A stretch of 64,000 bases of DNA. It comes from a phage. Below the pieces are notes generated by a model. The model was given only the letters and a program-made list of their open reading frames with translations. It was not told the origin of the DNA and did not search any database. The position numbers and the translations under genes were made by a program. The stretch lies in assembly GCA_012490745.1 (NCBI GenBank), contig GCA_012490745.1_3925.1, one strand, 5' to 3'. Below are positions 12,489 to 28,869 of the stretch, piece after piece (position 1 is the stretch's first letter; each line of letters begins with the position of its first letter).

Positions 12489-12759
12489 AGAAAAGTGGGA
12501 GATTTTACCATTAGTCAGTGAAGGTGGTAATGGTTGTGAGATGTACATGATACGTGGTCATGTTCCAGAACCAATTGCACTTGAGATGGTAAACAACTTT
12601 ACAGATGGTTCTTACAAAGACTTAGGAGAGCCAACTATAAAGCATCAATGGGTAAAGCCTGTACCAGACAGCACAGGTAACTGTAGTGTACTTTACCACG
12701 TTGTAGACCCTGTAAAATGCAAATCTGCAATGGCAGTAACAAACGTAACTTTTGATTGA
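12481..12759 (+). CDS. hypothetical protein
   Basis: ORF. Confidence 0.35.
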   Translation: MAKEKWEILPLVSEGGNGCEMYMIRGHVPEPIALEMVNNFTDGSYKDLGEPTIKHQWVKPVPDSTGNCSVLYHVVDPVKCKSAMAVTNVTFD

Positions 12760-12770
12760 GAGAGAAAACT

Positions 12771-13652
12771 ATGAAAACATCTATCCGTGTCACAATTCAT
12801 TCACCGACTAAAGGAACTCATGAAGAAGAGTTTAACATCATCCAATTCCCTTCTGGTGAGATTGGTGGCCACTTTTCACAAGAGCTTGTTGATTTTACTG
12901 CTTATGCAGCATCATCTATTAACAATGTGGTTATGATTGTAAAGGGTTATGATAAAGACACATTGTTTGCTGTGGCACTTGCTAAAGAAGCAATTGATGA
13001 TTTAATTCCTCATGATTATGCTTTAAAGACTATCATCTTTTACTACTTACCAAATGCACGATATGACCGTCACATGTTTAAAGGCGACGCAGCAGCTTTA
13101 AAGGTTTTTGCTAAACAGGTAAATGCAATGGGATTTGGTGCAGTCTGTGCAGTTGACCCTCACAGTTACGTTCCAGATAACCTGTTTAACTGCTTCCAGA
13201 GTATTCCTCAAAAGGAGATTGCAGTCCACTATGCAAATGACCCACTGGTTGATTACTTAGTGGCCCCAGATGCAGGTGCTGCTAAGAAGATTGTAGAGAC
13301 TGCTAAAGAGGTGGATAAACCATATATCACAATGTCTAAGGTGCGTAACCTTAAGACTGGCGAAATTACTGGTATGCGAATCCTTGACGATGTTGATTTG
13401 ACAGATAAAACCGTCATGATACTGGATGACATTTGCGATGGTGGTAGAACATTTATTGAGGCAGCTAAACATCTTCGTGAAGCAGGTGCAAAACGTGTGG
13501 AACTCTATGTAACACACGGTATCTTCTCTAAAGATGTTGAAAACTTGCTTGACAATGGTATTGACCATATCTACACTACAAACTCTTTAGGGGAAGCTGA
13601 AGACCGTGGCTTAACACATTATAGCCAAGTTACTGTAGCAAACCTTGATTAG
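12771..13652 (+). CDS. PRPP-synthetase-like phosphoribosyl pyrophosphokinase (Prs homolog; possibly ADP-ribose pyrophosphokinase of an NAD+ reconstitution pathway)
   Basis: About 293 aa; type-I PRT PRPP-binding motif VMILDDICDGGRTF; ATG at 12771 with SD (the track start at 12756 is TTG). Confidence 0.75.
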   Translation: MKTSIRVTIHSPTKGTHEEEFNIIQFPSGEIGGHFSQELVDFTAYAASSINNVVMIVKGYDKDTLFAVALAKEAIDDLIPHDYALKTIIFYYLPNARYDRHMFKGDAAALKVFAKQVNAMGFGAVCAVDPHSYVPDNLFNCFQSIPQKEIAVHYANDPLVDYLVAPDAGAAKKIVETAKEVDKPYITMSKVRNLKTGEITGMRILDDVDLTDKTVMILDDICDGGRTFIEAAKHLREAGAKRVELYVTHGIFSKDVENLLDNGIDHIYTTNSLGEAEDRGLTHYSQVTVANLD

Positions 13653-13660
13653 GTAACAGT

Positions 13661-14152
13661 ATGAATAAGGGTTATTTTGAAAGATACCTAATATATGAAC
13701 CAGATACAGGTTTATTAATTTGGAGAGTAACCCTTTGCAGTACCGCTATTGCTGGTAATGTGGCTGGCACAAGGTCTAAGAAGGGTTATATCCAAGTCCA
13801 GATAAATAAGAAGAGGTACTATGCACATAATATTGCATGGATTATGTCTGGAGGTGAGATACCAAGTGGATATGAGATAGACCACATAGACCTTGATAAA
13901 TCTAATAATAAGTTGGAGAATTTAAGACTTAGCACAAAGTCACAAAATCAGAGGAATAGGGGTATATACAAGAATAATAAAACTGGTGTGAAGGGTGTAA
14001 GTTTTTGTAAACAAACAGGTCTTTACAAAGCAAGAGTCATGCTTTACCATAAAGAATACTTTTGTGGAAGATTTAAAACGGTAGAAGAAGCAAAAGAAGC
14101 TGTAATTAAAAAGCGAATAGAACTTCATGGTGAGTTTGCAAGACATAACTAA
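13661..14152 (+). CDS. HNH homing endonuclease with AP2 DNA-binding domain
   Basis: YEIDHIDLDKSNNKLENLRLSTKSQNQRN (HNH_3-type motif) followed by GVKGVSFCKQTGLYKARVMLYHKEYFCGRFKTVEEAKEAV (AP2-like). Inserted between the two NAD-related genes. Confidence 0.8.
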   Translation: MNKGYFERYLIYEPDTGLLIWRVTLCSTAIAGNVAGTRSKKGYIQVQINKKRYYAHNIAWIMSGGEIPSGYEIDHIDLDKSNNKLENLRLSTKSQNQRNRGIYKNNKTGVKGVSFCKQTGLYKARVMLYHKEYFCGRFKTVEEAKEAVIKKRIELHGEFARHN

Positions 14153-14166
14153 GAGAGAGATAAAAT

Positions 14167-15948
14167 ATGAGTAAGTCACTTTACGCAGTACCAGCAGGTC
14201 TTAATGCAGATGCTTACAAGGCATCACATATATATCAGTATCCAGATGCTACGCAATATCTTATGTTGAACCTGACACCACGTAGTGACAAATGGTTTAA
14301 CAGCCCCTTAGCAATTGATGGTGTAGTAGCTTTTGGTATTCAACGTTTTGTTAAAGATTACTTGATAGACCACTGGAATGCTACGTTCTTTGAACGTGAC
14401 AAAAAAGAAGCAATTGACGAAATCTTAGAAGTCATGAATGGTGTTCTGGGCAAAGATGCTATCGGTCGAGAGCATTGGGAAGCACTCCACGATTTAGGTT
14501 ATCTACCAGTTGAAGTATATGCTGTAGAAGAAGGTACAGTTGTCCCGATGCGTGTCCCAATGATTGTCTTCCAGAACACTGTTTCAGGCTTCCATTGGGT
14601 AGCAGGTTATCTGGAAGATGCTTTCTCTGCTGAGATTTGGAAGGCTTGCACCATTGCGACTATTGCATTGCACTACAAACGTATATGTAAGAAGTGGGCT
14701 GACCTTACTTGTGACAACGACCTACATTTACCTTATCAGTGTCACGACTTTGCTATGCGTGGTATGTCCGGCTTTACTGATGACGCATTTAACGCTGTAG
14801 GTCACTTAACCAGCTTTAAAGGAACCGATAGCTTCCCTGCTGTATACACGGCTAAACGCATCTATGGACAGTCTTACCCAATCTCTGATATTGGTAGTTC
14901 TGTACCAGCCACTGAACACTCTGTAATGTGTGCAAACATTGCTTGGGAAGGTGGTAATGAGTTGATTGAAGAAGAAAGACGCTTTAAAGGTGAGTTACAA
15001 ACCTTCCGTCGTTTCTTAACAGAAACTTACCCAACTGGTATTGCAAGTGTTGTTTCAGACACTTATAACTTCTGGAGAACTGTGTCAGAAATTTTACCAG
15101 CACTCCGTAAAGAAATTATGGAACGTGATGGCAAACTGGTAATTCGTCCTGACTCTGGAGACCCTGTACATATTGTCACAGGTTATAAAGCAATCCACTT
15201 AGAATGTGCTAAGAAGGCTTATTACGAGCACCTAAGCAAGCTGGAAGCCAGTGACACAATGTTGAATGCTGTTCTGAACATGAAGCTTGAGAACATCAAC
15301 TATGGTATTGCTGGATGGCTACTGTCAGAAGGCTACGAGATGGTTGTTGACAGAGAAGACTTTGAAGTTGCTGATACAGTGATGTTGAAGAACGCTTATA
15401 TGGTTGGCTCTGCAAACGTTGTAACACGCCCTGTAGCTGAGATTGATGGAGCTATTAAGACACTGTACAACATCTTTGGAGGAACTATTAACTCTAAAGG
15501 TTTTAAGGTACTGGATGAGCACATTGGCCTTATCTATGGCGACTCTATCACGCTGGAACGTGCAAACGAAATCCTGAAGCGTCTGTATGAAATGGGTTTT
15601 GCAAGCTCTAACGTAGTGTTTGGCGTAGGCTCTTACACTTACCAGTACATGACTCGTGACACCTTTGCATTTGCTGTTAAAGCAACTCTTGCAAGCATTG
15701 GTGGTAAAGAGATTATGCTTGCAAAAGACCCTAAAACAGATAGTGGTGTTAAGAAGTCTGCTTTTGGTGGTGTAGCACCTATGTGGGATGGTGATAAGTT
15801 GAAAGCTGTAGATGGCTATGGATTCCAGAGCTTTGCAGATGTACTTGAACATCCAGCTTGTGCTTTACGTTTAGTCTTTAGCGACTCTGAGCAGTTCGGT
15901 TACACAACGCTTGGTGATATTCGAAATAATATTGACAAGCAGCTTTAA
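14167..15948 (+). CDS. nicotinamide phosphoribosyltransferase-like enzyme (NAMPT/NadV family; possibly Namat-type)
   Basis: 593 aa; long NAPRTase-family-like sequence adjacent to the Prs-like gene. The pairing is the classic phage NAD-salvage arrangement. Assignment is by context and overall resemblance, not alignment. Confidence 0.7.
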   Translation: MSKSLYAVPAGLNADAYKASHIYQYPDATQYLMLNLTPRSDKWFNSPLAIDGVVAFGIQRFVKDYLIDHWNATFFERDKKEAIDEILEVMNGVLGKDAIGREHWEALHDLGYLPVEVYAVEEGTVVPMRVPMIVFQNTVSGFHWVAGYLEDAFSAEIWKACTIATIALHYKRICKKWADLTCDNDLHLPYQCHDFAMRGMSGFTDDAFNAVGHLTSFKGTDSFPAVYTAKRIYGQSYPISDIGSSVPATEHSVMCANIAWEGGNELIEEERRFKGELQTFRRFLTETYPTGIASVVSDTYNFWRTVSEILPALRKEIMERDGKLVIRPDSGDPVHIVTGYKAIHLECAKKAYYEHLSKLEASDTMLNAVLNMKLENINYGIAGWLLSEGYEMVVDREDFEVADTVMLKNAYMVGSANVVTRPVAEIDGAIKTLYNIFGGTINSKGFKVLDEHIGLIYGDSITLERANEILKRLYEMGFASSNVVFGVGSYTYQYMTRDTFAFAVKATLASIGGKEIMLAKDPKTDSGVKKSAFGGVAPMWDGDKLKAVDGYGFQSFADVLEHPACALRLVFSDSEQFGYTTLGDIRNNIDKQL

Positions 15949-15986: not shown

Positions 15987-16001
15987 TTTCTGGAGAAAAC
16001 T

Positions 16002-16495: not shown

Positions 16496-16523
16496 TTTAA
16501 CAGTAAACTAAGAGGAAAGTATT

Positions 16524-18890: not shown

Positions 18891-18895
18891 AGTGT

Positions 18896-18925: not shown

Positions 18926-18969
18926 GGCATCACAAAATGATTTATTAACTAACAAGAGAGAGTAATAAG

Positions 18970-20079
18970 ATGACTACTAAAACTAAAGCACAGATTGACG
19001 CAGAAATTTACAAACTGGTTAAAGAGGGCAAGCTGACTAAAACCGCTATTGCACAGAAATTTAACACCTCAACCCGTTCAGTCGGTCGTGCTGTAGAGCG
19101 TCATGAAGCAACCTTAAAAGGGAATAAGAAGGTGACTTCTACACCAGCTACGAAGACTTTGAAGCAAGTTGCTAAGACCTTTAAAAAGAAAGCTGACAAA
19201 CCAGTTGAAAAGGTTGTTAAAGATGCTGTACAGAAAGCTCCAGTAAATAAACTGCATGAAGCTATGCAGAAAGATGACAAGATTGAGTACATGATTACTG
19301 GTGACTCTGTAATTATGACTTACGGTTCAGAGTCTGAAATTGTTGAATCTACTCATCCGAACTATCAAGAGATTGTAGTTCATGTTGTGAAAGGTGAGTT
19401 TAAGAAAGCCTTTGAACTGATGAACATTCGTAAGTCTATCGAAAACTTCACTCAGGGTGCTATCACAATCAAAGGCGACAAACTATTCTACGGTGCTGTT
19501 GAGATGCGTTCTACTCTGGTTGACCGTATTCTTCACATGATGAAGACTGGAGATAAAGGTTTCGAACGCCTTGTGATGTTCTTCGAAAAACTGATGGAAA
19601 ACCCATCTAAAGATTCCGTAGAACAACTTTGGGGCTTCGTATCTCACCTTGATGTTGAAATTGATGAAGAAGGCTACATCATTGGTTGGAAGAAAGTATC
19701 TACTCGTGAAGGCAAGCTGGTTGACTCCCACACCTACAGAGTACCTAATGATTTGGGTAACATTGTAGAAATGCCACGTTGGATGGTTGATAATAACCGT
19801 AACGTGACTTGCTCTCAAGGTCTTCATGTTGGTGCTTGGGATTATGTTCGTTGTTTCTCAGGTGATACAATTCTGAAGGTTCGTGTCCATCCACGAGACG
19901 TTGTATCCGTACCAACTGATTACAACGATATGAAGATGCGCTCGTCTCGTTATGAAGTTGCAGCAATCGTTGATAATCAACGTAAAGTGCTGAAAGCATG
20001 GGATGGCAAGACTGAAGCTTTACATGTCATCGTTGGTACTGCTGGAGAACTTATCTCCCAACGTAAACGTGAAATCTAA
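18970..20079 (+). CDS. rIIB: rIIB-like protein
   Basis: 369 aa immediately downstream of the rIIA-like gene; assignment mainly by synteny and size. Confidence 0.45.
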   Translation: MTTKTKAQIDAEIYKLVKEGKLTKTAIAQKFNTSTRSVGRAVERHEATLKGNKKVTSTPATKTLKQVAKTFKKKADKPVEKVVKDAVQKAPVNKLHEAMQKDDKIEYMITGDSVIMTYGSESEIVESTHPNYQEIVVHVVKGEFKKAFELMNIRKSIENFTQGAITIKGDKLFYGAVEMRSTLVDRILHMMKTGDKGFERLVMFFEKLMENPSKDSVEQLWGFVSHLDVEIDEEGYIIGWKKVSTREGKLVDSHTYRVPNDLGNIVEMPRWMVDNNRNVTCSQGLHVGAWDYVRCFSGDTILKVRVHPRDVVSVPTDYNDMKMRSSRYEVAAIVDNQRKVLKAWDGKTEALHVIVGTAGELISQRKREI

Positions 20080-20094
20080 TAAGTAATTTCTTAA

Positions 20095-20120
20095 AAGGCT
20101 GCTTCGGCGGCCTTTTTTAT
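20095..20120 (+). terminator. rho-independent terminator (GGCTGC-TTCG-GCGGCC + T6)
   Basis: GC stem with TTCG loop and TTTTTT. Confidence 0.7.
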
Positions 20121-20148
20121 TTGTATTTTGTGCAGAGTGCTGTATAAT
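20121..20148 (+). promoter_or_regulatory. sigma70-like promoter (TTGTAT-16-TATAAT, TG upstream of -10)
   Basis: Perfect TATAAT at 20143-20148 preceded by TG; -35-like TTGTAT at 20121-20126. Confidence 0.45.
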
Positions 20149-20179
20149 TGTTGTCACGATAAACTAAACAGGAGAACCA

Positions 20180-20728
20180 ATGAAGAAATTGATTCTAGGT
20201 TTGTGCTTAATGTTTACAGCACACTTATCTTATGCAGTTGACTGCCCAGAGCTATCAATTAGCCAAAAAGTAAACATGTTAAAAGCTTACCAGTATGGTG
20301 AGAATAACATGGGTAAAGGTTGGGGTATCACTCTAGCTGCTATAGCCTTACAAGAGTCAGAGTTAGGTCTGAAGGTAGAGAATAAAAAGACACATGATTA
20401 TGGTATTTTCCAGAATCACTTGAAGACTGTTGTAAAGCGTAACAAAATTAGTCCTAATGTGGCTAAAAAGAAACTCTTAAGAGACTTTGACTATGCTGCA
20501 AAGGAAACGCACAAAGAACTTGAATTTTGGACAAAGGTGCATGGTCAGCCAAAGTCAAAGAAAACTTTACAAAAAGTTTTAGCATCATATAATGCTGGGT
20601 ATTCGTACAGAATCCCTAAAGCTAAAAAATATTCTCAAGATGTCTATAACAACATGAAAGTTATCGCTCAATGTGAATTTGCAACAAACATTTCTAAGGT
20701 AAATCATGAAAAAATTAAGAAAGTCTGA
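20180..20728 (+). CDS. secreted protein with possible lytic-transglycosylase (SLT-like) domain
   Basis: Signal peptide MKKLILGLCLMFTAHLSYA; AIALQESELG...DYGIFQN resembles the SLT E-S ... G-L/I-x-Q motifs. Confidence 0.4.
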   Translation: MKKLILGLCLMFTAHLSYAVDCPELSISQKVNMLKAYQYGENNMGKGWGITLAAIALQESELGLKVENKKTHDYGIFQNHLKTVVKRNKISPNVAKKKLLRDFDYAAKETHKELEFWTKVHGQPKSKKTLQKVLASYNAGYSYRIPKAKKYSQDVYNNMKVIAQCEFATNISKVNHEKIKKV

Positions 20729-21401
20729 TGAAGTACTGTGTCATGCTTATGACTTACATCCTCATGAGTTAGGTCTTGATTCCTGTGTATGGACTCCAGA
20801 ACAGTGTAGGGATTTTGAAGACACTGCAAGAGAAGTTGTATGTTCACTTGAAGAGTTTCACACATCAGAGCCAATTGTGAATGTTGTAGATAAAGAGACT
20901 GGACAAACTATAGGGGTAAGTCGTGATAGTTTAGTCATAGTCAATAAAGACCTTGTAGAAAAAGGTAACCTCATCTTAGCAGATATTGATGGTGTTCTTA
21001 CAAATTTTAATCACGAAGATTGCTCAACGGAATTGACTGATGGGTCATTCTCACAGTACACTAATCTTCTTGACTCTGTAAGAGCAAAACCAACGTATGT
21101 TTTTAGTATTATTGATGCAATTGCTAATCATGCTGCCATTGGACTCTTGACAGCGAGAGGTGAATCTCAGAGAATACCTACTGAGATGTTTTTAAGGCAT
21201 AACATAGAGCATGACTACATGCTTTTTATGCGTGGTTTTGGAACTAACTCTATAAGTGCAGAAAGTTTGAAAGTGAGGATGATTCAGTCTTGCATCCTGC
21301 CTTACTTTAATATAGTATGTTTTATAGAAGACACAGAGAAGAATGTGCAGAAGGTGAACAGAATCCTTCCACACATTAAAACCATGTTAGTTAAACATTG
21401 A
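20706..21401 (+). CDS. hypothetical protein
   Basis: ORF overlapping upstream stop. Confidence 0.4.
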   Translation: MKKLRKSDEVLCHAYDLHPHELGLDSCVWTPEQCRDFEDTAREVVCSLEEFHTSEPIVNVVDKETGQTIGVSRDSLVIVNKDLVEKGNLILADIDGVLTNFNHEDCSTELTDGSFSQYTNLLDSVRAKPTYVFSIIDAIANHAAIGLLTARGESQRIPTEMFLRHNIEHDYMLFMRGFGTNSISAESLKVRMIQSCILPYFNIVCFIEDTEKNVQKVNRILPHIKTMLVKH

Positions 21402-21411
21402 GAGAAAACTT

Positions 21412-21876
21412 ATGAACAATATCATTACGGTAGCACTGGACGATACGGTAAACAAATCCGCAGTAGTTCGTAAAATGATTCAAGGTAACTTTGAAGGTAA
21501 AATTTTTCGTGCTGTTAATGTAAAAGCTGATGGCAGCATTCGTGAATATCGTGCATTGTTGAACGTTAAGAAGCACGTAAAAGGTGTTGGTTCAACGACT
21601 GCACACAAAGAAAACCTGATGACTATCTATGATATGGGTAAGGCTTCAGAGTTAGGTGCTGAAGGTATCGTTAAAGAAGGTGCTCCGTATCGCTCTTTCA
21701 ATCTGGAAACTACTCTTATGCTTTCCTTTACAAGTGGTTCCAAAACAATCACTTATCTCTTTACTGATGCTGCAACGGTATCTGCTATTAAGGATAGCAC
21801 TGTCAAAGCTGGCGTAGTTGCTGCTGCAAAAGCTTCTTCGATGGCTGCGAATATCCTTGCTAAAGTCCTCGGTTAA
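21412..21876 (+). CDS. hypothetical protein
   Basis: ORF followed by strong terminator. Confidence 0.45.
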   Translation: MNNIITVALDDTVNKSAVVRKMIQGNFEGKIFRAVNVKADGSIREYRALLNVKKHVKGVGSTTAHKENLMTIYDMGKASELGAEGIVKEGAPYRSFNLETTLMLSFTSGSKTITYLFTDAATVSAIKDSTVKAGVVAAAKASSMAANILAKVLG

Positions 21877-21885
21877 GGTTAAGAT

Positions 21886-21910
21886 ACAGGCTCCTTCGGG
21901 AGCCTTTTTC
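21886..21910 (+). terminator. rho-independent terminator (AGGCTCC-TTCG-GGAGCCT + T5)
   Basis: Perfect stem and TTCG loop, TTTTT. Confidence 0.75.
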
Positions 21911-21928
21911 ATTTCAGGAGATTGTTAA

Positions 21929-22276
21929 ATGACATTTAAAGAGTTCTGTCAAGCTACTTTCATAATTGTTTTCTTAGTTGGGGCGGGTGTCTGGGGAGGG
22001 TACTCTTACAGAGACTACCAAGTTGCTGAAACTGAGCTAAACAATCAAAAGCTCATAAGTGTTGCTAAAGATGCTTATCAGGAAGGATTAGTTACACTGA
22101 GCGCCAATTACAAAAATGATTTGAAAGATGTGCTTGCTAAGAATAAGCACACAAAAGAGGTACTAACATATGAAAAAACTAAGCCAGAGTTTTATAATGT
22201 TTGTGTTACTGATAATTATGTCAGGGTGTTCAACGAACAAAGTGAACAGTACATTCAAAAACTCCCAAGTAAGTGA
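21929..22276 (+). CDS. i-spanin-like protein (Rz-like)
   Basis: N-terminal TM helix (FIIVFLVGAGVWGG) followed by charged helical periplasmic region; the next gene starts inside it in another frame. Confidence 0.4.
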   Translation: MTFKEFCQATFIIVFLVGAGVWGGYSYRDYQVAETELNNQKLISVAKDAYQEGLVTLSANYKNDLKDVLAKNKHTKEVLTYEKTKPEFYNVCVTDNYVRVFNEQSEQYIQKLPSK

Positions 22277-22439
22277 GAGTGATAAGTACACTCAAGAAGA
22301 ATCACGGTATATCATCAAAGGCAACACAGGCAGTGATGTAGCAGCAGCACTTGAGTTCTACCGTGACGGCTTTTACCAGTGTACAATTAAAGCTAATAAC
22401 CTTATTGACATGATTTTATTAGGGAATAAGCAGCAATGA
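22170..22439 (+). CDS. o-spanin-like lipoprotein (Rz1-like), embedded/overlapping in a different frame
   Basis: Signal peptide with lipobox-like IIMSGC; start lies within the preceding ORF. Confidence 0.4.
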   Translation: MKKLSQSFIMFVLLIIMSGCSTNKVNSTFKNSQVSESDKYTQEESRYIIKGNTGSDVAAALEFYRDGFYQCTIKANNLIDMILLGNKQQ

Positions 22440-22705
22440 CAGAGAATCAAGACACTTTCTATGTAGAAGGTTACTTACTGTTGCCACGACCAAAAGAAAC
22501 TTATATGCGAATCGATTTCTTACCAACCATTATGGATAATGTGATGTGTCATATCTTTATGCAAGGTGTCACAGCACAGCTTAAGCATGTTGGTAAAGAT
22601 TGCAAAATAAAGGTTGACACTCATCCAGAAATCAAAGAGAATCACTACACATGGTTCTTACCAGATTCTAAAGAAATCTTAGCAGTTCTTAAAACGAGGA
22701 AGTAA
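22436..22705 (+). CDS. hypothetical protein
   Basis: ORF, ATGA overlap. Confidence 0.4.
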   Translation: MTENQDTFYVEGYLLLPRPKETYMRIDFLPTIMDNVMCHIFMQGVTAQLKHVGKDCKIKVDTHPEIKENHYTWFLPDSKEILAVLKTRK

Positions 22706-22707
22706 CT

Positions 22708-23034
22708 ATGCAGATTAATGGAAGAGACTTTGTAGCCGTTTACTACGAGAAAGATAAAGAAGTTGGCGTAGCACAAGTAACTTACGGCAATGGTAAGTGG
22801 CTATATGGAACAATTGCAGTGGTCGGAACAAGAAGTGACACAAAAACTTTTAAAGATTGTGTTGACCTTCTTGAAGAATCCATTCAGAATCATTGGTGTC
22901 TGATATGGATGACTGACAACGAAGTGATAGAACGCTTCAAAAAGATTGATATCAACATTGATAGTATTGAGCATGTTGATTTATATGAGCTAACTGAGAA
23001 GGTAAACTATGAAAGTAATACTAGCCAGAGATAA
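22708..23034 (+). CDS. hypothetical protein
   Basis: ORF. Confidence 0.4.
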   Translation: MQINGRDFVAVYYEKDKEVGVAQVTYGNGKWLYGTIAVVGTRSDTKTFKDCVDLLEESIQNHWCLIWMTDNEVIERFKKIDINIDSIEHVDLYELTEKVNYESNTSQR

Positions 23035-23236
23035 AAAGACACGAAAGCTTATCAGGTCAGCAGTGTTCATTGGACGAAATGAGGTCATCCCATTTACAGC
23101 AAATGATGTGATAGCTTACAGGAAGAACTTAGTATTCACTGACTGCTTACGTGGCTTCATCTCTGAACCATTGGAAGACTTTAAAAGTCGTTGTGGTAAA
23201 GGTATCATCATTCAAGAGGCAATTATTCATGGCTGA
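23009..23236 (+). CDS. hypothetical protein
   Basis: ORF. Confidence 0.3.
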   Translation: MKVILARDKKTRKLIRSAVFIGRNEVIPFTANDVIAYRKNLVFTDCLRGFISEPLEDFKSRCGKGIIIQEAIIHG

Positions 23237-23429
23237 CTTCTGTAAAGATTGTTCTATCGAAATGTTCGGACGTGATACAGGTGACTTAAAAGGTCTTATC
23301 ACTGAAGATGACTTTAAAGCTGGCTACGCAATGCCAGTAATCTGTGAAGGTTGTGGGTGCGTCTGGGTAGACCACGAAGGGCAACGTGTAAAACCTTCAG
23401 AAGATAAAGAATCTTGGGAGAGATGTTAA
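23229..23429 (+). CDS. hypothetical small Cys-rich protein
   Basis: 66 aa from ATG 23229; CKDC ... CEGCGC pairs suggest a Zn ribbon. Confidence 0.35.
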   Translation: MADFCKDCSIEMFGRDTGDLKGLITEDDFKAGYAMPVICEGCGCVWVDHEGQRVKPSEDKESWERC

Positions 23430-24215
23430 ATGGGTATTGTAAAAATCATCAATGGCGATATCTTTGCAGCATTTGATAAAGGTAAGTTTGACATCATTGG
23501 TCACGGTTGCAACTGTATGAATTTAATGGGTGCAGGTATCGCTGACAAGATTTCTAAACTTTACCCAAAAGCATATGAGACCGATACAGAAGTTTACCTC
23601 TATGCAGGTGGTATAGGTCACAAACCCTGTGAAAATCTACTGGGTAATTTCTCTGTAGCACGTTTAGAACAAGGCCGTATAGCTAACCTTTACACTCAGC
23701 TTAAGACTGGTAAAGATGCCCGATACAGTGCTTTAGAGTCATCTTTGAAACAACTTAACAGATACTGTGAAGTCAATCAGTTGAAGAAAGTTGGGTTACC
23801 TATGATTGGTGCAGGTATCGGTGGACTAGACCCTCAAGCCGTCACAGTTATCATTAATCAGGTGATGAAGAGTGTAGATGTGTATCTTTATGTCTACGAA
23901 GGAGAGATGTACCACAAGTTACGCTCAGGTTGGAAGAACTACTGTGAACCAGAATACTTTGCAGGTGTAGCAGTGTTCACAGATAACGCAGTTACCCTCT
24001 TCAGACGAAGAAAAGGTAAGATACATCAAAGTAACCCTCCGGTTGAAAAGATGTCTCTAAGTAACGCTCTAGTTACCCACCTGTCGAAGAGCAATCACAG
24101 GATTGCAGTAACATTTGGCAGTGATGCAGATACTTATATCTATGCAAGAACTGATGAGGATATCGAGACAGTTTTCTCTTCACCAGAAGTTACCTTCTTA
24201 GACGCAAAGAACTAA
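23430..24215 (+). CDS. macro-domain protein (ADP-ribose binding/processing)
   Basis: INGDIFAAFDKGKFDIIGHGCNCMNLMGAGIADKI and VGLPMIGAGIGGLDPQ resemble the two Gly-rich macro-domain signature blocks; about 100-aa C-terminal extension. Confidence 0.55.
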   Translation: MGIVKIINGDIFAAFDKGKFDIIGHGCNCMNLMGAGIADKISKLYPKAYETDTEVYLYAGGIGHKPCENLLGNFSVARLEQGRIANLYTQLKTGKDARYSALESSLKQLNRYCEVNQLKKVGLPMIGAGIGGLDPQAVTVIINQVMKSVDVYLYVYEGEMYHKLRSGWKNYCEPEYFAGVAVFTDNAVTLFRRRKGKIHQSNPPVEKMSLSNALVTHLSKSNHRIAVTFGSDADTYIYARTDEDIETVFSSPEVTFLDAKN

Positions 24216-24287
24216 GAAACTCTGTAGGATATTCACAATAGCCTAAGCCTTTCTTATCTGGTAAATTTTTCAGGTAAGGAGGGCTTT

Positions 24288-24470
24288 TTCATTTCAGAAT
24301 TGTGCAGGTAGAGTTCTGTAGAGAAATCTGTAGAGAGAATTTTGAACTCCAAAGAGAAAATTCATTTTCAAACTGTGCAGATAATCTCCAAAGAGCTTTT
24401 TCATTTTCAAAACGTGCAGACCACACTCAGGTCGGGCAAGAAAAATCATTTTAGATTTGTGCAGGTAGGT
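24288..24470. repeat. four direct repeats of about 20 bp (TTCATTTTCAAAnnGTGCAG-type), iteron-like
   Basis: Copies near 24288, 24361, 24399, 24445; also duplicated CTCCAAAGAG and TCTGTAGAGA words; followed by C-rich tract (24491-24530) and AT-rich DNA. Confidence 0.6.
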
Positions 24471-24642
24471 TTTTATAGAGAGCCAGACCAACCCCTCTCC
24501 CCCTCTTACTCCCCCTCTCCCCAAAAATCAAGAGAAAAATTTGTAGCGGATTGAAAAATAATTCTTGATTTGTGTTCTGTTTTGTGGTAGTCGTGTGCGC
24601 CCGTTTCATTACAGTTTTGCCAAAAATATTTTTAAAATTTTT

Positions 24643-24736
24643 TCTTGACTCTTTGAACGTGGTTATCTAGTATTTGCATCAACGGGGAGGGAATGACCTT
24701 CCCCACTAAATAAAGTCCTAAACTGGAGATTCAAAA
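24643..24736 (+). promoter_or_regulatory. cassette A1: promoter (TTGACT-17-TAGTAT) + leader stem-loop GGGGAGGGAATGACCTTCCCC + conserved SD
   Basis: Hairpin 24684-24704; leader CCACTAAATAAAGTCCTAAACTGGAGATTCAAAA-ATG ending at ATG 24737. Confidence 0.6.
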
Positions 24737-25120
24737 ATGGCATATCGTGCACCTAAATTCATCAACAAAGACAACTTTCGCAACGCACTGGAGAAGTCAC
24801 TTGATGAGAATTTTAAAGGTAACATTATCGTTGTTCACGCATTCAATTTTAAGTATGATGTAAACGGGAATAGAATCAACCATTACACGGCAACCATGTT
24901 AGATGGTACACTTTCAAGTGAAAAAGCCGTACTAAATGCACTGGCAGGACGTGGAAAGGTATTAGTAAGATGTGATAAGAGACGTTATCAGGGCGGCGCA
25001 TATGGTTATGATGATGCTGTTTACCATCTTGAAAATATGGGCTATCAAGTAGAAAAAGCTGGAGCATCACAAATCATCGGCAGCGATGGTTATGTAACTA
25101 TCTTCAAAATTAACAAATAA
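24737..25120 (+). CDS. hypothetical protein (cassette-linked)
   Basis: ATG placed 8 nt after the conserved GGAG of cassette A1. Confidence 0.55.
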   Translation: MAYRAPKFINKDNFRNALEKSLDENFKGNIIVVHAFNFKYDVNGNRINHYTATMLDGTLSSEKAVLNALAGRGKVLVRCDKRRYQGGAYGYDDAVYHLENMGYQVEKAGASQIIGSDGYVTIFKINK

Positions 25121-25205
25121 AGTACTTTACAAGGGGCTTATAGTTCGATAAAGTAAGCCCCAGATAAAGAGCTTTACCACTAAATCCTAAACTGGAGATT
25201 CAAAA
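25121..25205 (+). promoter_or_regulatory. cassette B1: TTTACA-17-TAAAGT promoter-like element overlapping hairpin GGGGCTTA(13)TAAGCCCC + conserved SD leader
   Basis: Hairpin 25133-25161 with 8-bp perfect stem; leader AGATAAAGAGCTTTACCACTAAATCCTAAACTGGAGATTCAAAA-ATG. Confidence 0.5.
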
Positions 25206-25718
25206 ATGAAAACTGTAGACGCTACCTTTGAAGTTGTAAAAGAAAAATTTTCCATCATTTACGAAGCAGTTAATTGCTTTGAAGCAAGCCATAATCTTGA
25301 TAATTGGGAATTTACAGATGACCATCAAGGCGGTGTGACGATTAAAAATCCTAGCTGTCAGCGTAATGAATTTAAATATGCAATCCCTTTACATTACAGC
25401 CTTAAACAGCTTTCAAGTGACTATGCAAAACAAGGCCGGGAAAACCCATCAAAAGAGGCTTACATCAGCTTACAGAAAGAACTAGAAAGAGATTTAGAGG
25501 CTTCAGAATATAACATCGCCGCGAAAGTTGTAGATGCAAACGGTAGCACGGTTTTAGAGAGTTTTTATATTGGTTATGCTTTCGATTGGTGCTATCATGA
25601 CGGCGATGATTTAGAGGATAGACTAAAAGAAGAGGTGAACAACGCAGACGCAGAATCTGAAGTATTAGAACGTTTGGAATCGTTGAAAGACTCAGTGATG
25701 AATATCTTTAAGAACTAA
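25206..25718 (+). CDS. hypothetical acidic protein (cassette-linked)
   Basis: 170 aa, acidic (many D/E), ATG at conserved cassette position. Confidence 0.55.
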   Translation: MKTVDATFEVVKEKFSIIYEAVNCFEASHNLDNWEFTDDHQGGVTIKNPSCQRNEFKYAIPLHYSLKQLSSDYAKQGRENPSKEAYISLQKELERDLEASEYNIAAKVVDANGSTVLESFYIGYAFDWCYHDGDDLEDRLKEEVNNADAESEVLERLESLKDSVMNIFKN

Positions 25719-25721
25719 ATA

Positions 25722-25810
25722 GATTTCTTTACACGGGGTTATCAGACTGATAAGATAGCCCCAGATAAAGAGCTTTATTCAAATCAACCCTTAAACTAGG
25801 AGATTCTAAA
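25722..25810 (+). promoter_or_regulatory. cassette B2 (variant): TTTACA-17-TAAGAT + hairpin GGGGTTATC...GATAGCCCC + SD
   Basis: Hairpin 25735-25762 with one G-U pair; same downstream leader. Confidence 0.45.
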
Positions 25811-26107
25811 ATGAAATTATCAAATCAAGTGCGTGAGAATCTGAGCAAATTACTCAACAAAATTGATTTCATTGAAACATCAAGGAATAGTCATGATGTT
25901 ATGGAATGGTTACACGGCAAAATAAAAGGCCGTCGTGTAGTGATTTGCTTATGGAACAGTTGCAGGGAGTATAAAAAACCTGTATTGCAAGTCAATATCT
26001 ATGATGATACTTTTAAAAGCCCTGTAAAGTCTAAAAACGACTTATTAGAATCCTATGAGATAACTGTAAGTGGCAAAGTATCACGTAAAGAGGAAACACC
26101 ATGTTAA
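25811..26107 (+). CDS. hypothetical protein (cassette-linked)
   Basis: ATG at conserved cassette position. Confidence 0.5.
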   Translation: MKLSNQVRENLSKLLNKIDFIETSRNSHDVMEWLHGKIKGRRVVICLWNSCREYKKPVLQVNIYDDTFKSPVKSKNDLLESYEITVSGKVSRKEETPC

Positions 26108-26433
26108 TGACTGGTATCACTGCAATCATTGCCATTTTCGCGCTATATAAGGCATATAAAGCCTATAATCTAGCAAATAAGGCAATCACACAGCAGGTTA
26201 GAAATAACCTTGTAGAGAGCTTTCTAGGGCGTCTCAGTGATGAGCAAATAAAGCGGCTAGAGATGAGCTTCAGATACAAAGCGAAAACCTATCAGATAAG
26301 TGACATCTTCAAAGATAATTTTCAGTTAGTTGATGATTATAATTCTCTGATAAATGCTTTAAATGTCAGTGACTTAAAAGACTACTACGCTGTAATTGTT
26401 CAAGAGTTGAGCAAACGAAAACAAAACTGTTGA
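26107..26433 (+). CDS. hypothetical membrane protein
   Basis: TAATG stop/start overlap with upstream gene; N-terminal TM helix (GITAIIAIFALY). Confidence 0.4.
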   Translation: MTGITAIIAIFALYKAYKAYNLANKAITQQVRNNLVESFLGRLSDEQIKRLEMSFRYKAKTYQISDIFKDNFQLVDDYNSLINALNVSDLKDYYAVIVQELSKRKQNC

Positions 26434-26522
26434 CACTGGTTTTTAGATAGATTAAATTACACATCAACGGGGAGGGAATGACCTTCCCCACTAAATAAAG
26501 TCCTAAACTGGAGATTCTGAAA
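26430..26522 (+). promoter_or_regulatory. cassette A2: TTGACA-17-TAAATT promoter + leader hairpin + SD
   Basis: TTGACA 26430-26435; hairpin 26469-26489; conserved leader to ATG 26523. Confidence 0.6.
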
Positions 26523-26795
26523 ATGTATACTACTAACAACGGTCGCACCTTAAATGTCACCTTGCGTCACTATGTAGACGGTGTGATGTGCTTTGAAGAT
26601 TTACGGGCTGAGCAACACATCTTAAATTGGCAAGTTGCAGGACTCCAAAAAACTGCTACAGGATACGGGAAAAAGATTCCAACCAGTTGGAAAGTACACT
26701 ACGAAGGACGTTTGCGCAGAATTTATCAGGATGTGCAAAGCAATAGCGCATCGAGTTACATTATAGTAAAAGGCAAAAAACTGCATTTAATGTAA
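26523..26795 (+). CDS. hypothetical protein (cassette-linked)
   Basis: ATG at conserved cassette position. Confidence 0.5.
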   Translation: MYTTNNGRTLNVTLRHYVDGVMCFEDLRAEQHILNWQVAGLQKTATGYGKKIPTSWKVHYEGRLRRIYQDVQSNSASSYIIVKGKKLHLM

Positions 26796-26796
26796 A

Positions 26797-26881
26797 GTAC
26801 TTTACAAGGGGCTTATAGTTCGATAAAGTAAGCCCCAGATAAAGAGCTTTACCACTAAATCCTAAATTGGAGAACTTAAAA
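26797..26881 (+). promoter_or_regulatory. cassette B3
   Basis: Hairpin 26808-26836 (GGGGCTTA...TAAGCCCC); near-identical to B1. Confidence 0.5.
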
Positions 26882-27286
26882 ATGGCTATTAATAACCGTG
26901 AATTATCAATTTTAAAAGCACGTTTGACCGTTAACCGGATTAATGTTATCACGTCATCAGCACCAGATGAAACACTGCAAAACATTATTGGGAAGATTCA
27001 AAGTGTTATCTTAGACGTTGAAAGCGTAAAAAATTCATTGGCTGACGTTGCAGCAGGTATCACACTAGACGGTGCGCAATATGAAATGTCCGACATGTTA
27101 GGCAAATCTAAGGTAATGAATAAAGAGTTAGATTTGAAAATGTTCCGATTTGCTGTTAAAGTGTGGCTATCTGTCGAGTATGATGCTAACTTTGCAATCG
27201 CTGACTTTTTCGCCACTTGGTTGCAGCGTAATTTGACTAATCATGACTTCCGCGATATCTGTGATGCAATTTATGCAGAACTCTAA
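26882..27286 (+). CDS. hypothetical protein (cassette-linked)
   Basis: ATG 26882 at cassette position (the track start 26867 is TTG). Confidence 0.5.
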   Translation: MAINNRELSILKARLTVNRINVITSSAPDETLQNIIGKIQSVILDVESVKNSLADVAAGITLDGAQYEMSDMLGKSKVMNKELDLKMFRFAVKVWLSVEYDANFAIADFFATWLQRNLTNHDFRDICDAIYAEL

Positions 27287-27296
27287 AAAAATTTTG

Positions 27297-27388
27297 TTGA
27301 CACTGGTTTTTAGATAGATTAAATTACACATCAACGGGGAGGGAATGACCTTCCCCACTAAATAAAGTCCTAAACTGGAGATTCAAAA
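27297..27388 (+). promoter_or_regulatory. cassette A3: TTGACA-17-TAAATT + hairpin + SD
   Basis: Near-identical copy of A2; hairpin 27336-27356. Confidence 0.6.
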
Positions 27389-27592
27389 ATGGCTATTATT
27401 AATGGTTTAACCATTGAAACTACACACATCAAAGATATCAAAGTTGGCGATATAGTCCTTTCCCACGGCGTAGAAAAAACTGTCACTGCAAAGGATATCA
27501 AAGAGGATTCTTTCATGGGTAGGACTCTCTTCGGTGATTCTTATTGCTTAGGCTATCTTGCAGTTTTAAAAGTTGTCAAAAATAACAAATAA
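27389..27592 (+). CDS. hypothetical small protein (cassette-linked)
   Basis: 67 aa; ATG at cassette position. Confidence 0.5.
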   Translation: MAIINGLTIETTHIKDIKVGDIVLSHGVEKTVTAKDIKEDSFMGRTLFGDSYCLGYLAVLKVVKNNK

Positions 27593-27678
27593 AGTACTTT
27601 ACAAGGGGCTTAAAAGTTGATAACTTAAGCCCCAGATAAAGAGCTTTACCACTAAATCCTAAACTGGAGATTCTAAAA
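27593..27678 (+). promoter_or_regulatory. cassette B4 (variant loop)
   Basis: Hairpin 27605-27633 GGGGCTTAA...TTAAGCCCC (9-bp stem). Confidence 0.5.
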
Positions 27679-27927
27679 ATGATGAACTACTTTAACATTC
27701 CCGATACCTGTAGATTATTGACACAAGAAGAAAATTTGGGTAAACCTTTCATTTACCACATGCCAGATAACACGGCAAAAACTTATAGTTACAATGTTAA
27801 CCGTTTCACCGCATACGCTGCAAAGAACGGCTATAGGTTGGTTACTCAAAAAGTAATGCTGGTTACAACTGCTGGCGAGATTCCTACAGTTGCAGTCAAA
27901 CTAGTTTTCTCAAAGAAAGTTAAATAA
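27679..27927 (+). CDS. hypothetical small protein (cassette-linked)
   Basis: 82 aa. Confidence 0.5.
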   Translation: MMNYFNIPDTCRLLTQEENLGKPFIYHMPDNTAKTYSYNVNRFTAYAAKNGYRLVTQKVMLVTTAGEIPTVAVKLVFSKKVK

Positions 27928-28012
27928 AGTACTTTACAAGGGGCTTATAGTTCGATAAAGTAAGCCCCAGATAAAGAGCTTTACTACTCAATCCTAAACT
28001 GGAGATTCAAAA
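27928..28012 (+). promoter_or_regulatory. cassette B5
   Basis: Hairpin 27940-27968; same as B1/B3. Confidence 0.5.
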
Positions 28013-28555: not shown

Positions 28556-28587
28556 AAACCTATGCAATCACCTTATAAACACTATTT

Positions 28588-28607
28588 AGCCCCTTACAGG
28601 GGCTTTT
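28588..28607 (+). terminator. rho-independent terminator (AGCCCCT-TAC-AGGGGCT + TTTT)
   Basis: Perfect 7-bp stem then T-run; followed by SD GGGAGG and ATG 28622. Confidence 0.6.
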
Positions 28608-28621
28608 GGGAGGCTTAAATC

Positions 28622-28855: not shown

Positions 28856-28869
28856 ACAAGCCTGATAAA

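What the first reader, a model, noticed from the sequence alone, without database searches (positions are those of the whole stretch)
23430..24215. Macro-domain protein: possible ADP-ribose processing linked to the NAD module or to counter-defence
Both Gly-rich signature blocks of macro domains are present (GHGCNCMNLMGAGIADKI and IGAGIGGLD). A phage macro domain could remove ADP-ribose marks, hydrolyse ADPR-derived signals, or supply ADPR to the Prs-like/NAMPT-like pair. The 100-aa C-terminal extension has no recognisable motif.
Basis: partly seen in the sequence, partly recalled or inferred. Interest (0 to 1): 0.55.

Follow-up and report, generated by a model that had tools for sequence, protein, structure and literature searches.

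The report
Anti-defence macrodomain with orphan C-terminal domain
This Felix O1-type phage gene encodes an ADP-ribose-cleaving macrodomain from the same family as two recently proven phage counter-defence enzymes, fused to a fast-evolving extra domain of unknown fold: a known kind of enzyme with an unstudied addition.

Summary
ORF 23430..24215 (+, 261 aa) is a real, conserved gene in a Felixounavirus. Residues 1-157 are a macrodomain by Pfam, by a confident AlphaFold2 model and by fold search. It belongs to the phage Tk.4-like family within the TARG1/DarG/SCO6735/Poa1p class. It has the His25/Asn28/Gln90 active site of SCO6735, a proven thymidine-ADP-ribose DNA hydrolase, not the Lys of TARG1/DarG.

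Two family members have been characterised. T4 Tk.4 (AdfM) is needed to resist DarTG2. Vibrio phage Gary Adpp converts ADPR-1''-phosphate to ADPR for the NARP1 NAD+ pathway, defeating aRES. This phage's Prs-like/NAMPT-like pair is NARP1, but the macro gene lies 7.5 kb away in a separate transcription unit. Sequence slightly favours the AdfM role. Homology cannot exclude the Adpp role or both.

The C-terminal 104 residues form a folded domain with no detectable relative by sequence or structure. It is under purifying selection but about 5-fold less constrained than the macrodomain. Two deeply diverged alleles of the gene (42% identity) circulate in otherwise ~95-98% identical Felixounaviruses. 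Verdict: a new variant of a known kind, of moderate interest.

The parts
23430..24215 (+). Macro-CTD gene, 261 aa plus stop codon
   Evidence: ORF; PHROG 335 full-length match at E 2e-113; annotated as 'phosphatase' or 'macro domain protein' in relatives.
23430..23900 (+). Macrodomain, residues 1-157
   Evidence: Pfam PF01661 at 32.1 bits. Family profile against PDB: TARG1 4e-17, Mtb DarG 5e-16, SCO6735 2e-15, Poa1p 4e-15. Foldseek TM (target-normalised) 0.75-0.86 to TARG1, DarG and Poa1p. dN/dS median 0.048.
23502..23516 (+). H25-G26-C27-N28-C29 active-site motif. His25 corresponds to SCO6735 His24, Poa1p His23 and Adpp His24. Asn28 corresponds to SCO6735 Asn27.
   Evidence: Invariant in the 31-sequence family alignment; alignments to TARG1, SCO6735 and Poa1p; functional data from the literature.
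23526..23543 (+). M33-G-A-G-I-A38, the first Gly-rich diphosphate-binding loop
   Evidence: M33, G36 and A38 are invariant. The loop aligns with the MGAGIA loop of TARG1.
23685..23699 (+). N86-L-Y-T-Q90. Gln90 occupies the position of the catalytic TARG1 Lys84, DarG Lys80 and SCO6735 Gln85.
   Evidence: Invariant N86, L87, T89 and Q90; alignment to TARG1; SCO6735 Q85A is inactive on dT-ADPr DNA.
23799..23825 (+). P124-M-I-G-A-G-I-G-G132, the second Gly-rich loop. Gly131 sits where TARG1 has Asp125.
23901..24212 (+). C-terminal domain, residues 158-261: one helix, six beta-strands and a short helix; orphan fold
23229..23429 (+). Upstream 66-aa ORF with CxxC...CxxCxC (zinc-ribbon-like). Its stop TAA directly abuts the macro ATG, and a GGGAGAG Shine-Dalgarno-like sequence lies inside its 3' end.
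   Evidence: Sequence; annotated in relatives; no Pfam or PADLOC hit. A 63-aa Cys-rich ORF sits at the same place in the distant long-form locus L004, but with no detectable homology.
24245..24286 (+). Intrinsic-terminator-like hairpin (17-bp stem then T-run), 30 nt after the stop codon. It closes the transcription unit.
   Evidence: RNA fold -23.6 kcal/mol, z -5.6.
12756..13652 (+). Context: Adps-like gene (Prs-like), first gene of NARP1
   Evidence: Pfam PF14572 and PF00156. Same Pfam pair as Bas63 genes 79-80, in which NARP1 was defined. Bas63 is a Felixounavirus.
14167..15948 (+). Context: Namat-like gene (NAMPT-like), second gene of NARP1, followed by a terminator-like hairpin at 15960-15983
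   Evidence: Pfam PF04095 and PF18127; terminator scan.

Best explanation
The gene encodes a catalytically competent macrodomain hydrolase of the phage Tk.4-like family, which acts at C1'' of the distal ribose of ADP-ribose and serves the phage as a counter-defence enzyme. Its most likely main job is the AdfM role. After a host DarT2-type toxin ADP-ribosylates thymidines in single-stranded phage DNA, the macrodomain binds the ADP-ribose in its cleft (the two Gly-rich loops hold the diphosphate). His25 and Asn28 position Gln90 against the distal ribose, and a water-mediated reaction releases free ADP-ribose and restores the base, so replication can proceed.

What is shown here: macro fold; membership of the ALC1-like/TARG1-DarG-SCO6735 class; an SCO6735-type His/Asn/Gln triad; closest characterised relative T4 AdfM; placement in a unit of its own that ends in a strong terminator.

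What is inferred: the substrate. The same chemistry could also remove the 1''-phosphate of ADPR-1''-P (the Adpp role) and so feed the phage's own NARP1. I consider dual use plausible.

The C-terminal domain is inferred to be an accessory module for partner or substrate recognition. Its function is unknown.
For: - Macro fold and family.
- PADLOC and NCBIfam return DarG as the only hit, over the macro part only.
- Gln90 aligns with TARG1 Lys84, which is the position of SCO6735 Gln85. SCO6735 removes DarT-made ADPr from thymidine, and its Q85A, N27S and G128E mutants lose activity. His25, Asn28, Gln90 and Gly129 are invariant in the family.
- T4 Tk.4/AdfM is the closest characterised homolog: 82 bits and 34-35% identity, against 52 bits for Gary Adpp. 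It shares all 16 invariant family positions.
- tk.4 was the single DarTG2-specific hit in a T4 transposon screen, and a clean knockout sensitised T4 to DarTG2.
- An unrelated phage macrodomain, PhiKZ gp104, biochemically strips DarT2-made ADPr from DNA, so this counter-defence strategy is established.
- The gene is not in the NARP1 operon. Three terminator-like hairpins separate them, and the gene has its own strong terminator.
- T4 keeps its Tk.4 gene in a tk-vs region with no NARP1 genes nearby.
- The bimodal allele replacement and the faster-evolving CTD fit a locus engaged with a variable host factor.
Against: - No experiment exists on any Felixounavirus macro protein or on Felixounavirus sensitivity to DarTG2.
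- The evidence for T4 AdfM is genetic, and its enzymology is inferred.
- T4 AdfM is as similar to Gary Adpp (77 bits) as to this protein (82 bits), so the two characterised functions sit in one family and homology does not separate them.
- The 'AdfM-type' signature (HGCNC / YTQ / IGAG) also occurs in NARP1-adjacent macro genes of Acinetobacter and Aeromonas phages.
- Bootstrap support for grouping this protein with T4 AdfM to the exclusion of NARP1-linked proteins is only 64%.
- Every long-form lineage examined also carries NARP1 upstream.
- The residue whose mutation inactivates Adpp (His24) is conserved here.
Confidence: 0.48

Rival explanations
1. Adpp role is primary. The protein is an ADPR-1''-phosphate phosphatase. 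When a host aRES (RES-domain NAD+ phosphorylase) converts NAD+ to nicotinamide plus ADPR-1''-P, which Adps cannot use, the macrodomain removes the 1''-phosphate. The phage's own NARP1 (Adps 12756..13652, Namat 14167..15948) can then rebuild NAD+. This is a split version of the NARP1-AP pathway.
For: Adpp of Vibrio phage Gary is a Tk.4-like macro protein with this activity, and it is required to overcome aRES. The inactivating mutation is H24A, which corresponds to the invariant His25 here. This phage has NARP1, and NARP1 alone fails against aRES. aRES is found in E. coli, Klebsiella and Enterobacter. All four long-form lineages keep NARP1 about 8-10 kb upstream in the same synteny. Some NARP1-adjacent macro proteins share the HGCNC/YTQ signature.
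Against: The gene is not within two genes of NARP1. It lies about 15 genes and three terminator-like hairpins downstream. It is less similar to Gary Adpp (52 bits, 27%) and K470 Adpp (50 bits) than to T4 AdfM (82 bits). G26, T89, A128 and I130 differ from the Gary, Ceto, Brizo, Kat and K470 proteins. The co-occurrence with NARP1 in Ounavirinae reflects a shared syntenic core and is not independent evidence.
Confidence: 0.3
2. The enzyme acts on another ADP-ribose conjugate. It may reverse ADP-ribosylation of proteins or RNA by host toxins, or hydrolyse an ADPR-derived immune signal (for example His-ADPR of type II Thoeris), possibly also yielding ADPR for NARP1.
For: TARG1 and SCO6735 from the same class also de-modify proteins. 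Macrodomains bind His-ADPR in Thoeris II effectors. Other phage enzymes are reported to degrade ADPR-based signals and fuel NAD+ synthesis (abstract listed).
Against: No member of the Tk.4-like family has been shown to do this. The two members tested have other substrates. Nothing in the gene neighbourhood points to such a target.
Confidence: 0.12
3. The protein is a non-catalytic ADP-ribose binder (a sponge or sensor), or has a housekeeping Appr-1''-p phosphatase role linked to tRNA repair, as the database label 'phosphatase' (Poa1p-like) implies.
For: The 'phosphatase' annotation is widespread. A PNK-like gene and a tRNA cluster are present in the genome.
Against: All residues shown to be needed for catalysis in SCO6735 and Adpp are invariant, and the macrodomain is under strong purifying selection (dN/dS 0.048). 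Poa1p Ser30 and the GIFG Phe152 are not conserved. No Tpt1-type source of Appr-1''-p was seen in the annotated relatives.
Confidence: 0.05

Closest known systems
T4 Tk.4 = AdfM (anti-DarT factor, macrodomain; HIDEN-SEQ preprint 10.1101/2025.11.20.689424)
   Same: Same phage Tk.4-like family (PHROG 335). 34-35% identity over the whole macrodomain. All 16 invariant family positions are shared, including HGCNC, MGxGxA, NLYTQ and PxIGAGIG.
   Different: T4 Tk.4 is a bare 155-aa macrodomain. This protein adds a 104-aa folded C-terminal domain and has a more basic loop after Gln90 (K92, K95, R98). T4's tk-vs region has no NARP1 genes, whereas this phage does carry NARP1.
Adpp of Vibrio phage Gary (NARP1-AP; preprint 10.64898/2026.01.28.702374)
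   Same: Same broad family. The His (H24 in Adpp, H25 here), Asn and Gln are conserved. Both phages encode NARP1.
   Different: Only 27% identity and 52 bits. Adpp has HQCNC / NVYGQ / IGCGLAGG and sits between Adps and Namat. This gene lies 7.5 kb downstream in another transcription unit and has an extra domain.
SCO6735 (Streptomyces coelicolor; PDB 5E3B), a thymidine-ADPr DNA hydrolase
   Same: Same ALC1-like class (profile E 2.4e-15) and the same active-site solution: His24/Asn27/Gln85/Gly128 correspond to His25/Asn28/Gln90/Gly129.
   Different: A bacterial single-domain protein under SOS-type control. About 27% identity. It has IGCGLAGG rather than IGAGIGG.
DarG antitoxin of DarTG2, and PhiKZ gp104 'AdfM' (DarG-like)
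   Same: The macrodomain matches the N-terminal half of the DarG models (PADLOC 3.5e-13; NCBIfam 48 bits) and the DarG structures 5M3E and 5M3I. The two-domain layout, a macrodomain plus a second domain, resembles DarG.
   Different: The catalytic Lys80 is replaced by Gln. The NCBIfam score is far below the equivalog cutoff (48 against 250). The C-terminal domain shows no similarity to the DarG C-terminal half. There is no adjacent darT. Similarity to PhiKZ gp104 is only 26 bits.
Human TARG1/OARD1 and yeast Poa1p
   Same: TARG1 is the best PDB sequence and fold match (E 4e-17; target-normalised TM 0.81-0.86). Poa1p His23 is conserved.
   Different: The TARG1 Lys84/Asp125 dyad is Gln90/Gly131 here. 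Poa1p Ser30 and Phe152 are Leu32 and Gly131 here.

Membership tests
Macro domain superfamily (Pfam PF01661) | Profile score above the curated gathering threshold | tested here: met
   32.1 bits against a cutoff of 22, residues 25-141.
Macro domain superfamily (Pfam PF01661) | Three-layer alpha/beta/alpha macro fold | tested here: met
   AF2 pLDDT 89.6. Foldseek to TARG1, DarG, Poa1p and viral macrodomains at E 1e-8 to 1e-10.
ALC1-like class (TARG1 / DarG / SCO6735) | Closest solved relatives are members of this class | tested here: met
   Family profile against PDB: TARG1 3.9e-17, Mtb DarG 4.6e-16, SCO6735 2.4e-15, Taq DarG 1.4e-13.
TARG1 | Catalytic Lys84/Asp125 dyad | tested here: not met
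   These positions align to Gln90 and Gly131.
DarG antitoxin (NCBIfam NF048014 equivalog; PADLOC DarG) | Full-length model score above the cutoff, including the C-terminal DarT-binding half | tested here: not met
   48 bits against a cutoff of 250. Only profile positions 4-154 of 338 (NCBIfam) and 18-146 of 329 (PADLOC) are matched.
DarG antitoxin (NCBIfam NF048014 equivalog; PADLOC DarG) | Catalytic Lys (Taq DarG Lys80) | tested here: not met
   Gln90 occupies that position.
DarG antitoxin (NCBIfam NF048014 equivalog; PADLOC DarG) | Encoded next to a darT toxin gene | tested here: not met
   The neighbours are small phage ORFs with no Pfam or PADLOC hits, plus the spanins.
SCO6735-type dT-ADPr hydrolase active site | His24, Asn27, Gln85 and Gly128 equivalents present | tested here: met
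   His25, Asn28, Gln90 and Gly129 are invariant. Equivalence follows from the TARG1 and SCO6735 alignments and the mutagenesis literature.
Phage Tk.4-like / AdfM (T4) family | Sequence membership (PHROG 335, shared invariant motifs, significant pairwise similarity to T4 Tk.4) | tested here: met
   PHROG 335 at 2e-113. BLASTP 2e-24 and 35% identity. Motifs. Clade with T4 Tk.4 excluding NARP1-linked proteins in 64% of bootstraps.
Phage Tk.4-like / AdfM (T4) family | Confers resistance to DarTG2 / removes ADPr from thymidine in DNA | not testable with these tools
   Needs a phage knockout on a DarTG2 host and an in vitro de-ADP-ribosylation assay.
Adpp / NARP1-AP | Macro gene inside or within two genes of the Adps-Namat operon (criterion used by the authors) | tested here: not met
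   The gene is 7.5 kb and about 15 genes downstream, separated by terminator-like hairpins at 15960, 20093 and 21888. It is absent from their Table S1 search terms.
Adpp / NARP1-AP | NARP1 (Adps + Namat) present in the same genome | tested here: met
   Pfam PF14572/PF00156 and PF04095/PF18127 pair at 12756..15948. NARP1 was defined in the Felixounavirus Bas63.
Adpp / NARP1-AP | Catalytic His (Adpp H24; Poa1p H23) | tested here: met
   His25 is invariant. The H24A primer entry is in the supplement.
Adpp / NARP1-AP | ADPR-1''-P phosphatase activity | not testable with these tools
   Needs purified protein and LC-MS.
Poa1p (yeast Appr-1''-p phosphatase) | His23, Ser30 and Phe152 (mutants in PDB 6LFS, 6LFT, 6LFU) | tested here: inconclusive
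   His is conserved. The Ser30 position is Leu32, and GIFG is GIGG here (transitive alignment through T4 Tk.4). Adpp itself lacks Ser30, so the feature may not be required.

The most novel reading that the evidence does not exclude
One enzyme may defeat two unrelated defences, with a built-in arms-race module. The same C1''-directed chemistry would both strip DarT2 marks from phage DNA and turn aRES-made ADPR-1''-P into ADPR for the phage's NARP1. The fast-evolving, allelically dimorphic orphan C-terminal domain would bind a variable host protein (for example DarT2, as the unrelated C-terminal domain of DarG does) or dock onto Adps to channel ADPR.
Probability: 0.15. Interest if true: 0.65.

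Novelty: new variant of a known kind. Interest (0 to 1): 0.4.

Why it matters
Felixounaviruses are widely used therapeutic and typing phages of E. coli and Salmonella, and Bas63 is the reference phage for NARP1. If this gene is an anti-DarT2 enzyme, it explains part of their host range on strains carrying DarTG2. If it also (or instead) supplies ADPR from ADPR-1''-P, then the original NARP1 phage lineage already carries a dispersed NARP1-AP pathway, and the count of phages able to beat aRES, based on gene adjacency, is an underestimate. The two-domain architecture and the clean two-allele polymorphism give a tractable handle on what determines specificity in phage macrodomain counter-defence. 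It also shows that the database label 'phosphatase' on some 2,800 phage genomes hides at least two distinct proven roles.

Tried and rejected
- **AdfM versus Adpp by catalytic residues.** This failed. His, Asn and Gln are shared by T4 AdfM, K470 and Gary Adpp, SCO6735 and BT1257.
- **AdfM versus Adpp by a four-residue signature (G26/T89/A128/I130).** It looked clean in my panel. It was undermined by the aRES paper's Table S1, where NARP1-adjacent Acinetobacter and Aeromonas phage proteins carry HGCNC/YTQ/IGAG.
- **Tree-based assignment.** The NJ bootstrap for the exact AdfM-type clade is only 14.5%, and 64% for the weaker statement. A pairwise matrix shows the two characterised proteins are as close to each other as to this one.
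- **C-terminal domain as a known or mobile module.** No Pfam hit. Single-sequence phmmer against 1.84 billion representatives finds only its own family. Profile searches against 5.8 billion proteins and against PDB find nothing. The weak hit P0033 is a PPC-repeat protein that matches a 28-residue strand motif, which I judged uninformative.
- **C-terminal domain as a basic nucleic-acid-binding domain.** Not supported. Its pI ranges from 4.6 to 8.7 across homologs.
- **The upstream 4-Cys ORF as a conserved partner.** It is conserved only within Felixounavirus. The ORFs at the same position in distant long-form lineages are not homologous.
- **Rfam scan of the downstream intergenic repeats.** No match.
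- **Other.** The afdb50 fold library was unavailable. A guessed accession for Bas63 was wrong and returned Bas34.

Full report
**Observation.** The window is a Felixounavirus, a Felix O1-like myovirus of E. coli and Salmonella. The 2.8 kb around the finding is 99.8% identical to Escherichia phage vB_EcoM_LMP33, and about 255 phage records carry the locus. ORF 23430..24215 (+) encodes 261 aa. Pfam Macro (PF01661) scores 32.1 bits against a gathering cutoff of 22. PHROG 335, labelled 'phosphatase', matches residues 1-260 at E 2e-113. GenBank relatives label the gene 'phosphatase', 'macro domain protein' or 'hypothetical protein'.

**Structure.** An AlphaFold2 model built on 31 homologs is confident (pLDDT 89.6, pTM 0.88) and shows two domains. 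Residues 1-157 are a macrodomain. Residues 158-261 form a compact domain of one helix, six strands and a short helix. Foldseek against the PDB aligns only the first ~155-179 columns. The best matches are TARG1 (2.5e-10), Thermus DarG (1.6e-9), Poa1p (1.9e-9) and M. tuberculosis DarG (2.5e-9).

**Which kind of macrodomain.** A profile of the family hits TARG1 (3.9e-17), Mtb DarG (4.6e-16), SCO6735 (2.4e-15), Poa1p (3.9e-15), BT1257 and Taq DarG (1.4e-13). This is the ALC1-like class. The only hit in PADLOC and in NCBIfam is DarG, and only over its macro half. The NCBIfam score is 48 bits against an equivalog cutoff of 250. In the alignment to TARG1, the catalytic Lys84 corresponds to the invariant Gln90 of the NLYTQ motif, and Asp125 corresponds to Gly131. 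The protein is therefore neither a TARG1-type nor a DarG-type (Lys) enzyme.

SCO6735 has Gln85 at this same position. It removes DarT-installed ADP-ribose from thymidine in DNA, and Q85A abolishes that activity. Asn27, which locks Gln85 in place, and Gly128 are also needed. The equivalents here (His25, Asn28, Gln90, Gly129) are invariant across the family (SCO6735 residues read from the alignment). The active site is thus of a type proven capable of dT-ADPr hydrolysis.

**Characterised phage relatives.** The N-terminal ~155 residues match macro proteins in about 2,800 phage records, including T4 Tk.4 (BLASTP 2e-24, 35% identity). A 2025 preprint found tk.4 as the single DarTG2-specific hit in a T4 transposon screen. 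It showed that a clean knockout sensitises T4 to DarTG2 and renamed the gene adfM. Removal of ADPr from DNA was inferred, not assayed.

Independently, PhiKZ gp104 was shown biochemically to remove DarT2-made ADPr from DNA. It is a DarG-like, Lys-type macrodomain that is also called AdfM, and it scores only 26 bits against this protein.

A 2026 preprint showed that aRES (a RES-domain NAD+ phosphorylase) makes ADPR-1''-P, which NARP1 cannot use. In 15% of NARP1 phages a macro protein (Adpp) lies within two genes of the operon. Adpp of Vibrio phage Gary converts ADPR-1''-P to ADPR and is required to overcome aRES. The inactivating mutation was H24A, which corresponds to His25 here.

**The NAD module.** The Prs-like gene (12756..13652) and the NAMPT-like gene (14167..15948) carry the same Pfam pair as genes 79-80 of Bas63, in which NARP1 (Adps/Namat) was discovered. 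Bas63 is a Felixounavirus.

The macro gene is not part of it. It lies 7.5 kb and about 15 genes downstream, past rIIA, rIIB, a PNK-like gene and the spanins. Terminator-like hairpins on the + strand follow Namat (15960-15983), rIIB (20093-20116) and ORF 21412..21876 (21888-21905). The macro gene itself is followed 30 nt later by a 17-bp-stem hairpin with a T-run (24245-24286; -23.6 kcal/mol, z -5.6). It therefore closes a separate unit, roughly 21906-24286. Directly upstream, with its stop codon abutting the macro ATG, is a 66-aa ORF with a CxxC...CxxCxC pattern.

**AdfM or Adpp?** I built a panel with known context. It comprised T4 Tk.4; Adpp orthologs by synteny (K470, Ceto, Brizo; Brizo is in the same genus as Gary); Pakpunavirus Kat, whose macro gene is two genes after Namat; phi92, Barba9A and Kolesnikvirus; the Gary Adpp sequence itself; and the bacterial anchors.

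By pairwise score this protein is closest to T4 AdfM (82 bits). Kat scores 77, phi92 67, Gary Adpp 52 and K470 Adpp 50. It shares G26, T89, A128 and I130 with T4 AdfM and with all short forms found by sequence search. Every NARP1-linked protein in my panel differs at these four positions. A clade containing this protein and T4 AdfM but none of the NARP1-linked or bacterial proteins appears in 64% of NJ bootstraps.

Two results temper this. T4 AdfM is as similar to Gary Adpp (77 bits, 35%) as it is to this protein. The authors' Table S1 contains NARP1-adjacent proteins with HGCNC/YTQ/IGAG signatures, in Acinetobacter phiAbaA1-like and Aeromonas LAh_6 phages. The family is a continuum with two demonstrated roles. 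Both reactions displace a leaving group from C1'' of the distal ribose, so dual activity is chemically plausible (inference). I therefore rank the AdfM role first (about 0.48) and the Adpp role second (about 0.30), and I regard them as not mutually exclusive.

The two-domain form is monophyletic (97% bootstrap). It occurs across Ounavirinae-like lineages: Felixounavirus, Mooglevirus, Kolesnikvirus and three metagenomic lineages. In all of them it sits in the same synteny downstream of NARP1, rIIA/B and the PNK-like gene.

Among seven Felixounavirus alleles, median dN/dS is 0.048 for the macrodomain and 0.254 for the C-terminal domain. The C-terminal value is higher in 20 of 21 pairs. The domain is therefore selected but about five times less constrained. 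Variable sites cluster at residues 158-169, 181-187, 234-235 and 246-248. Among the closer relatives it diverges 2-3.5 times faster than the macrodomain.

**Allelic dimorphism.** Contig L012 is collinear with this window at 95.5% identity (window 12982-23015) and 97.7% identity (24401-24656). From about codon 48 of the macro gene through its terminator there is no nucleotide similarity. The encoded protein (P0009) is 42% identical overall (53.5% in the macrodomain, 22% in the C-terminal domain), and its catalytic motifs are intact.

This 'allele B' is present at >=95% identity in 13 named Felixounaviruses, including BPS17L1, Si3, finno, ECML-1 and phiWec172/174/177. All other 252 records are below 60%, with nothing in between. 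The laboratory-evolved VpaE1_ev035 carries allele B while VpaE1 carries the A type. Replacement of a single gene within a conserved backbone is what one expects of a locus interacting with a variable host factor. This supports a counter-defence role but does not say which one.

**Comparison with known systems and novelty.** The protein is a member of the macro superfamily and of the phage Tk.4-like family. It has an SCO6735-type active site. It is not a DarG equivalog, not a TARG1-type enzyme, and not an operonic Adpp by the authors' adjacency criterion. No paper in the searchable library addresses the Felixounavirus protein.

I classify it as a new variant of a known kind: a known counter-defence enzyme family, with an uncharacterised lineage-specific domain and a notable polymorphism. 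Interest is moderate (0.4). A specialist would not be surprised by a phage macrodomain acting in counter-defence. The open question of one enzyme with two roles, and the nature of the orphan domain, are directly testable in Bas63, which is already the NARP1 model phage.

**Limits.** Function is inferred from homology and context only. The trees are neighbour-joining on 151 columns with a small panel. The dN/dS values use seven sequences and the Nei-Gojobori method. Promoter and terminator calls are pattern matches. Model coordinates could not be inspected.

Noticed in passing
window 23572-24400 compared with L012 10144-10933; named phages: Two deeply diverged alleles of the macro-CTD gene (42% aa identity) occur within Felixounaviruses whose flanks are 95-98% identical. 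The distribution is bimodal: 13 records at >=95% to allele B, 252 below 60%, and none between. The lab-evolved VpaE1_ev035 has allele B and its parent VpaE1 has the A type.
   Followed up: yes
window 13661-14152 (+): A 163-aa HNH endonuclease ORF (Pfam HNH_3 at 1.7e-19, with a weak AP2-like DNA-binding part) is inserted between the two NARP1 genes, Adps and Namat. Many relatives lack it; they cover only 84% of the query, and L012 also lacks it.
   Followed up: partly
window 24289-24522: Just after the macro gene's terminator there are four to five copies of a ~35-45-nt repeat (core TCATTTYMRA..TGTGCAGR), followed by a C-rich tract CCCCTCTCCCCCTCTTACTCCCCCTCTCCCC. No Rfam family matches. In allele-B phages, similarity to this window resumes inside this region.
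   Followed up: partly
window 24633-30440: Repeated ~77-105-nt intergenic modules (promoter-like site, GC hairpin CGGGGAGGG...CCTTCCCC, then AAACTAGGAGATTCAAAAATG) precede most of the small ORFs downstream. They make an array of individually driven small early genes.
   Followed up: no
window 23229-23429 (+): A 66-aa ORF with six Cys (CxxC ... CxxCxC) whose stop codon abuts the macro start. It is 98.5% conserved even in allele-B phages. Distant long-form lineages have unrelated small ORFs at the same place, one of them also Cys-rich (L004 7810-8001).
   Followed up: partly
window 23016-23221 compared with L012 9567-9794: A second short segment (ORF 23009..23236, 75 aa), just upstream of the 4-Cys ORF, also lacks nucleotide similarity between the two otherwise near-identical phages.
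   Followed up: no
L008 (phage phi92) 1890-3456: phi92 gp185 is a macro protein with an ~85-aa N-terminal extension. It is encoded immediately after a ComF-like PRTase (Pfam PRTase_3 at 6e-41) and near a TerC-like membrane protein. This is a different macro-PRTase pairing from NARP1.
   Followed up: partly
L007 (Erwinia phage vEam_W_25, Kolesnikvirus) 11998-12780: The Kolesnikvirus 260-aa ortholog has Gln in place of the otherwise invariant His25 (GQGCNC). Its C-terminal half is not alignable by eye with the Felixounavirus C-terminal domain.
   Followed up: no
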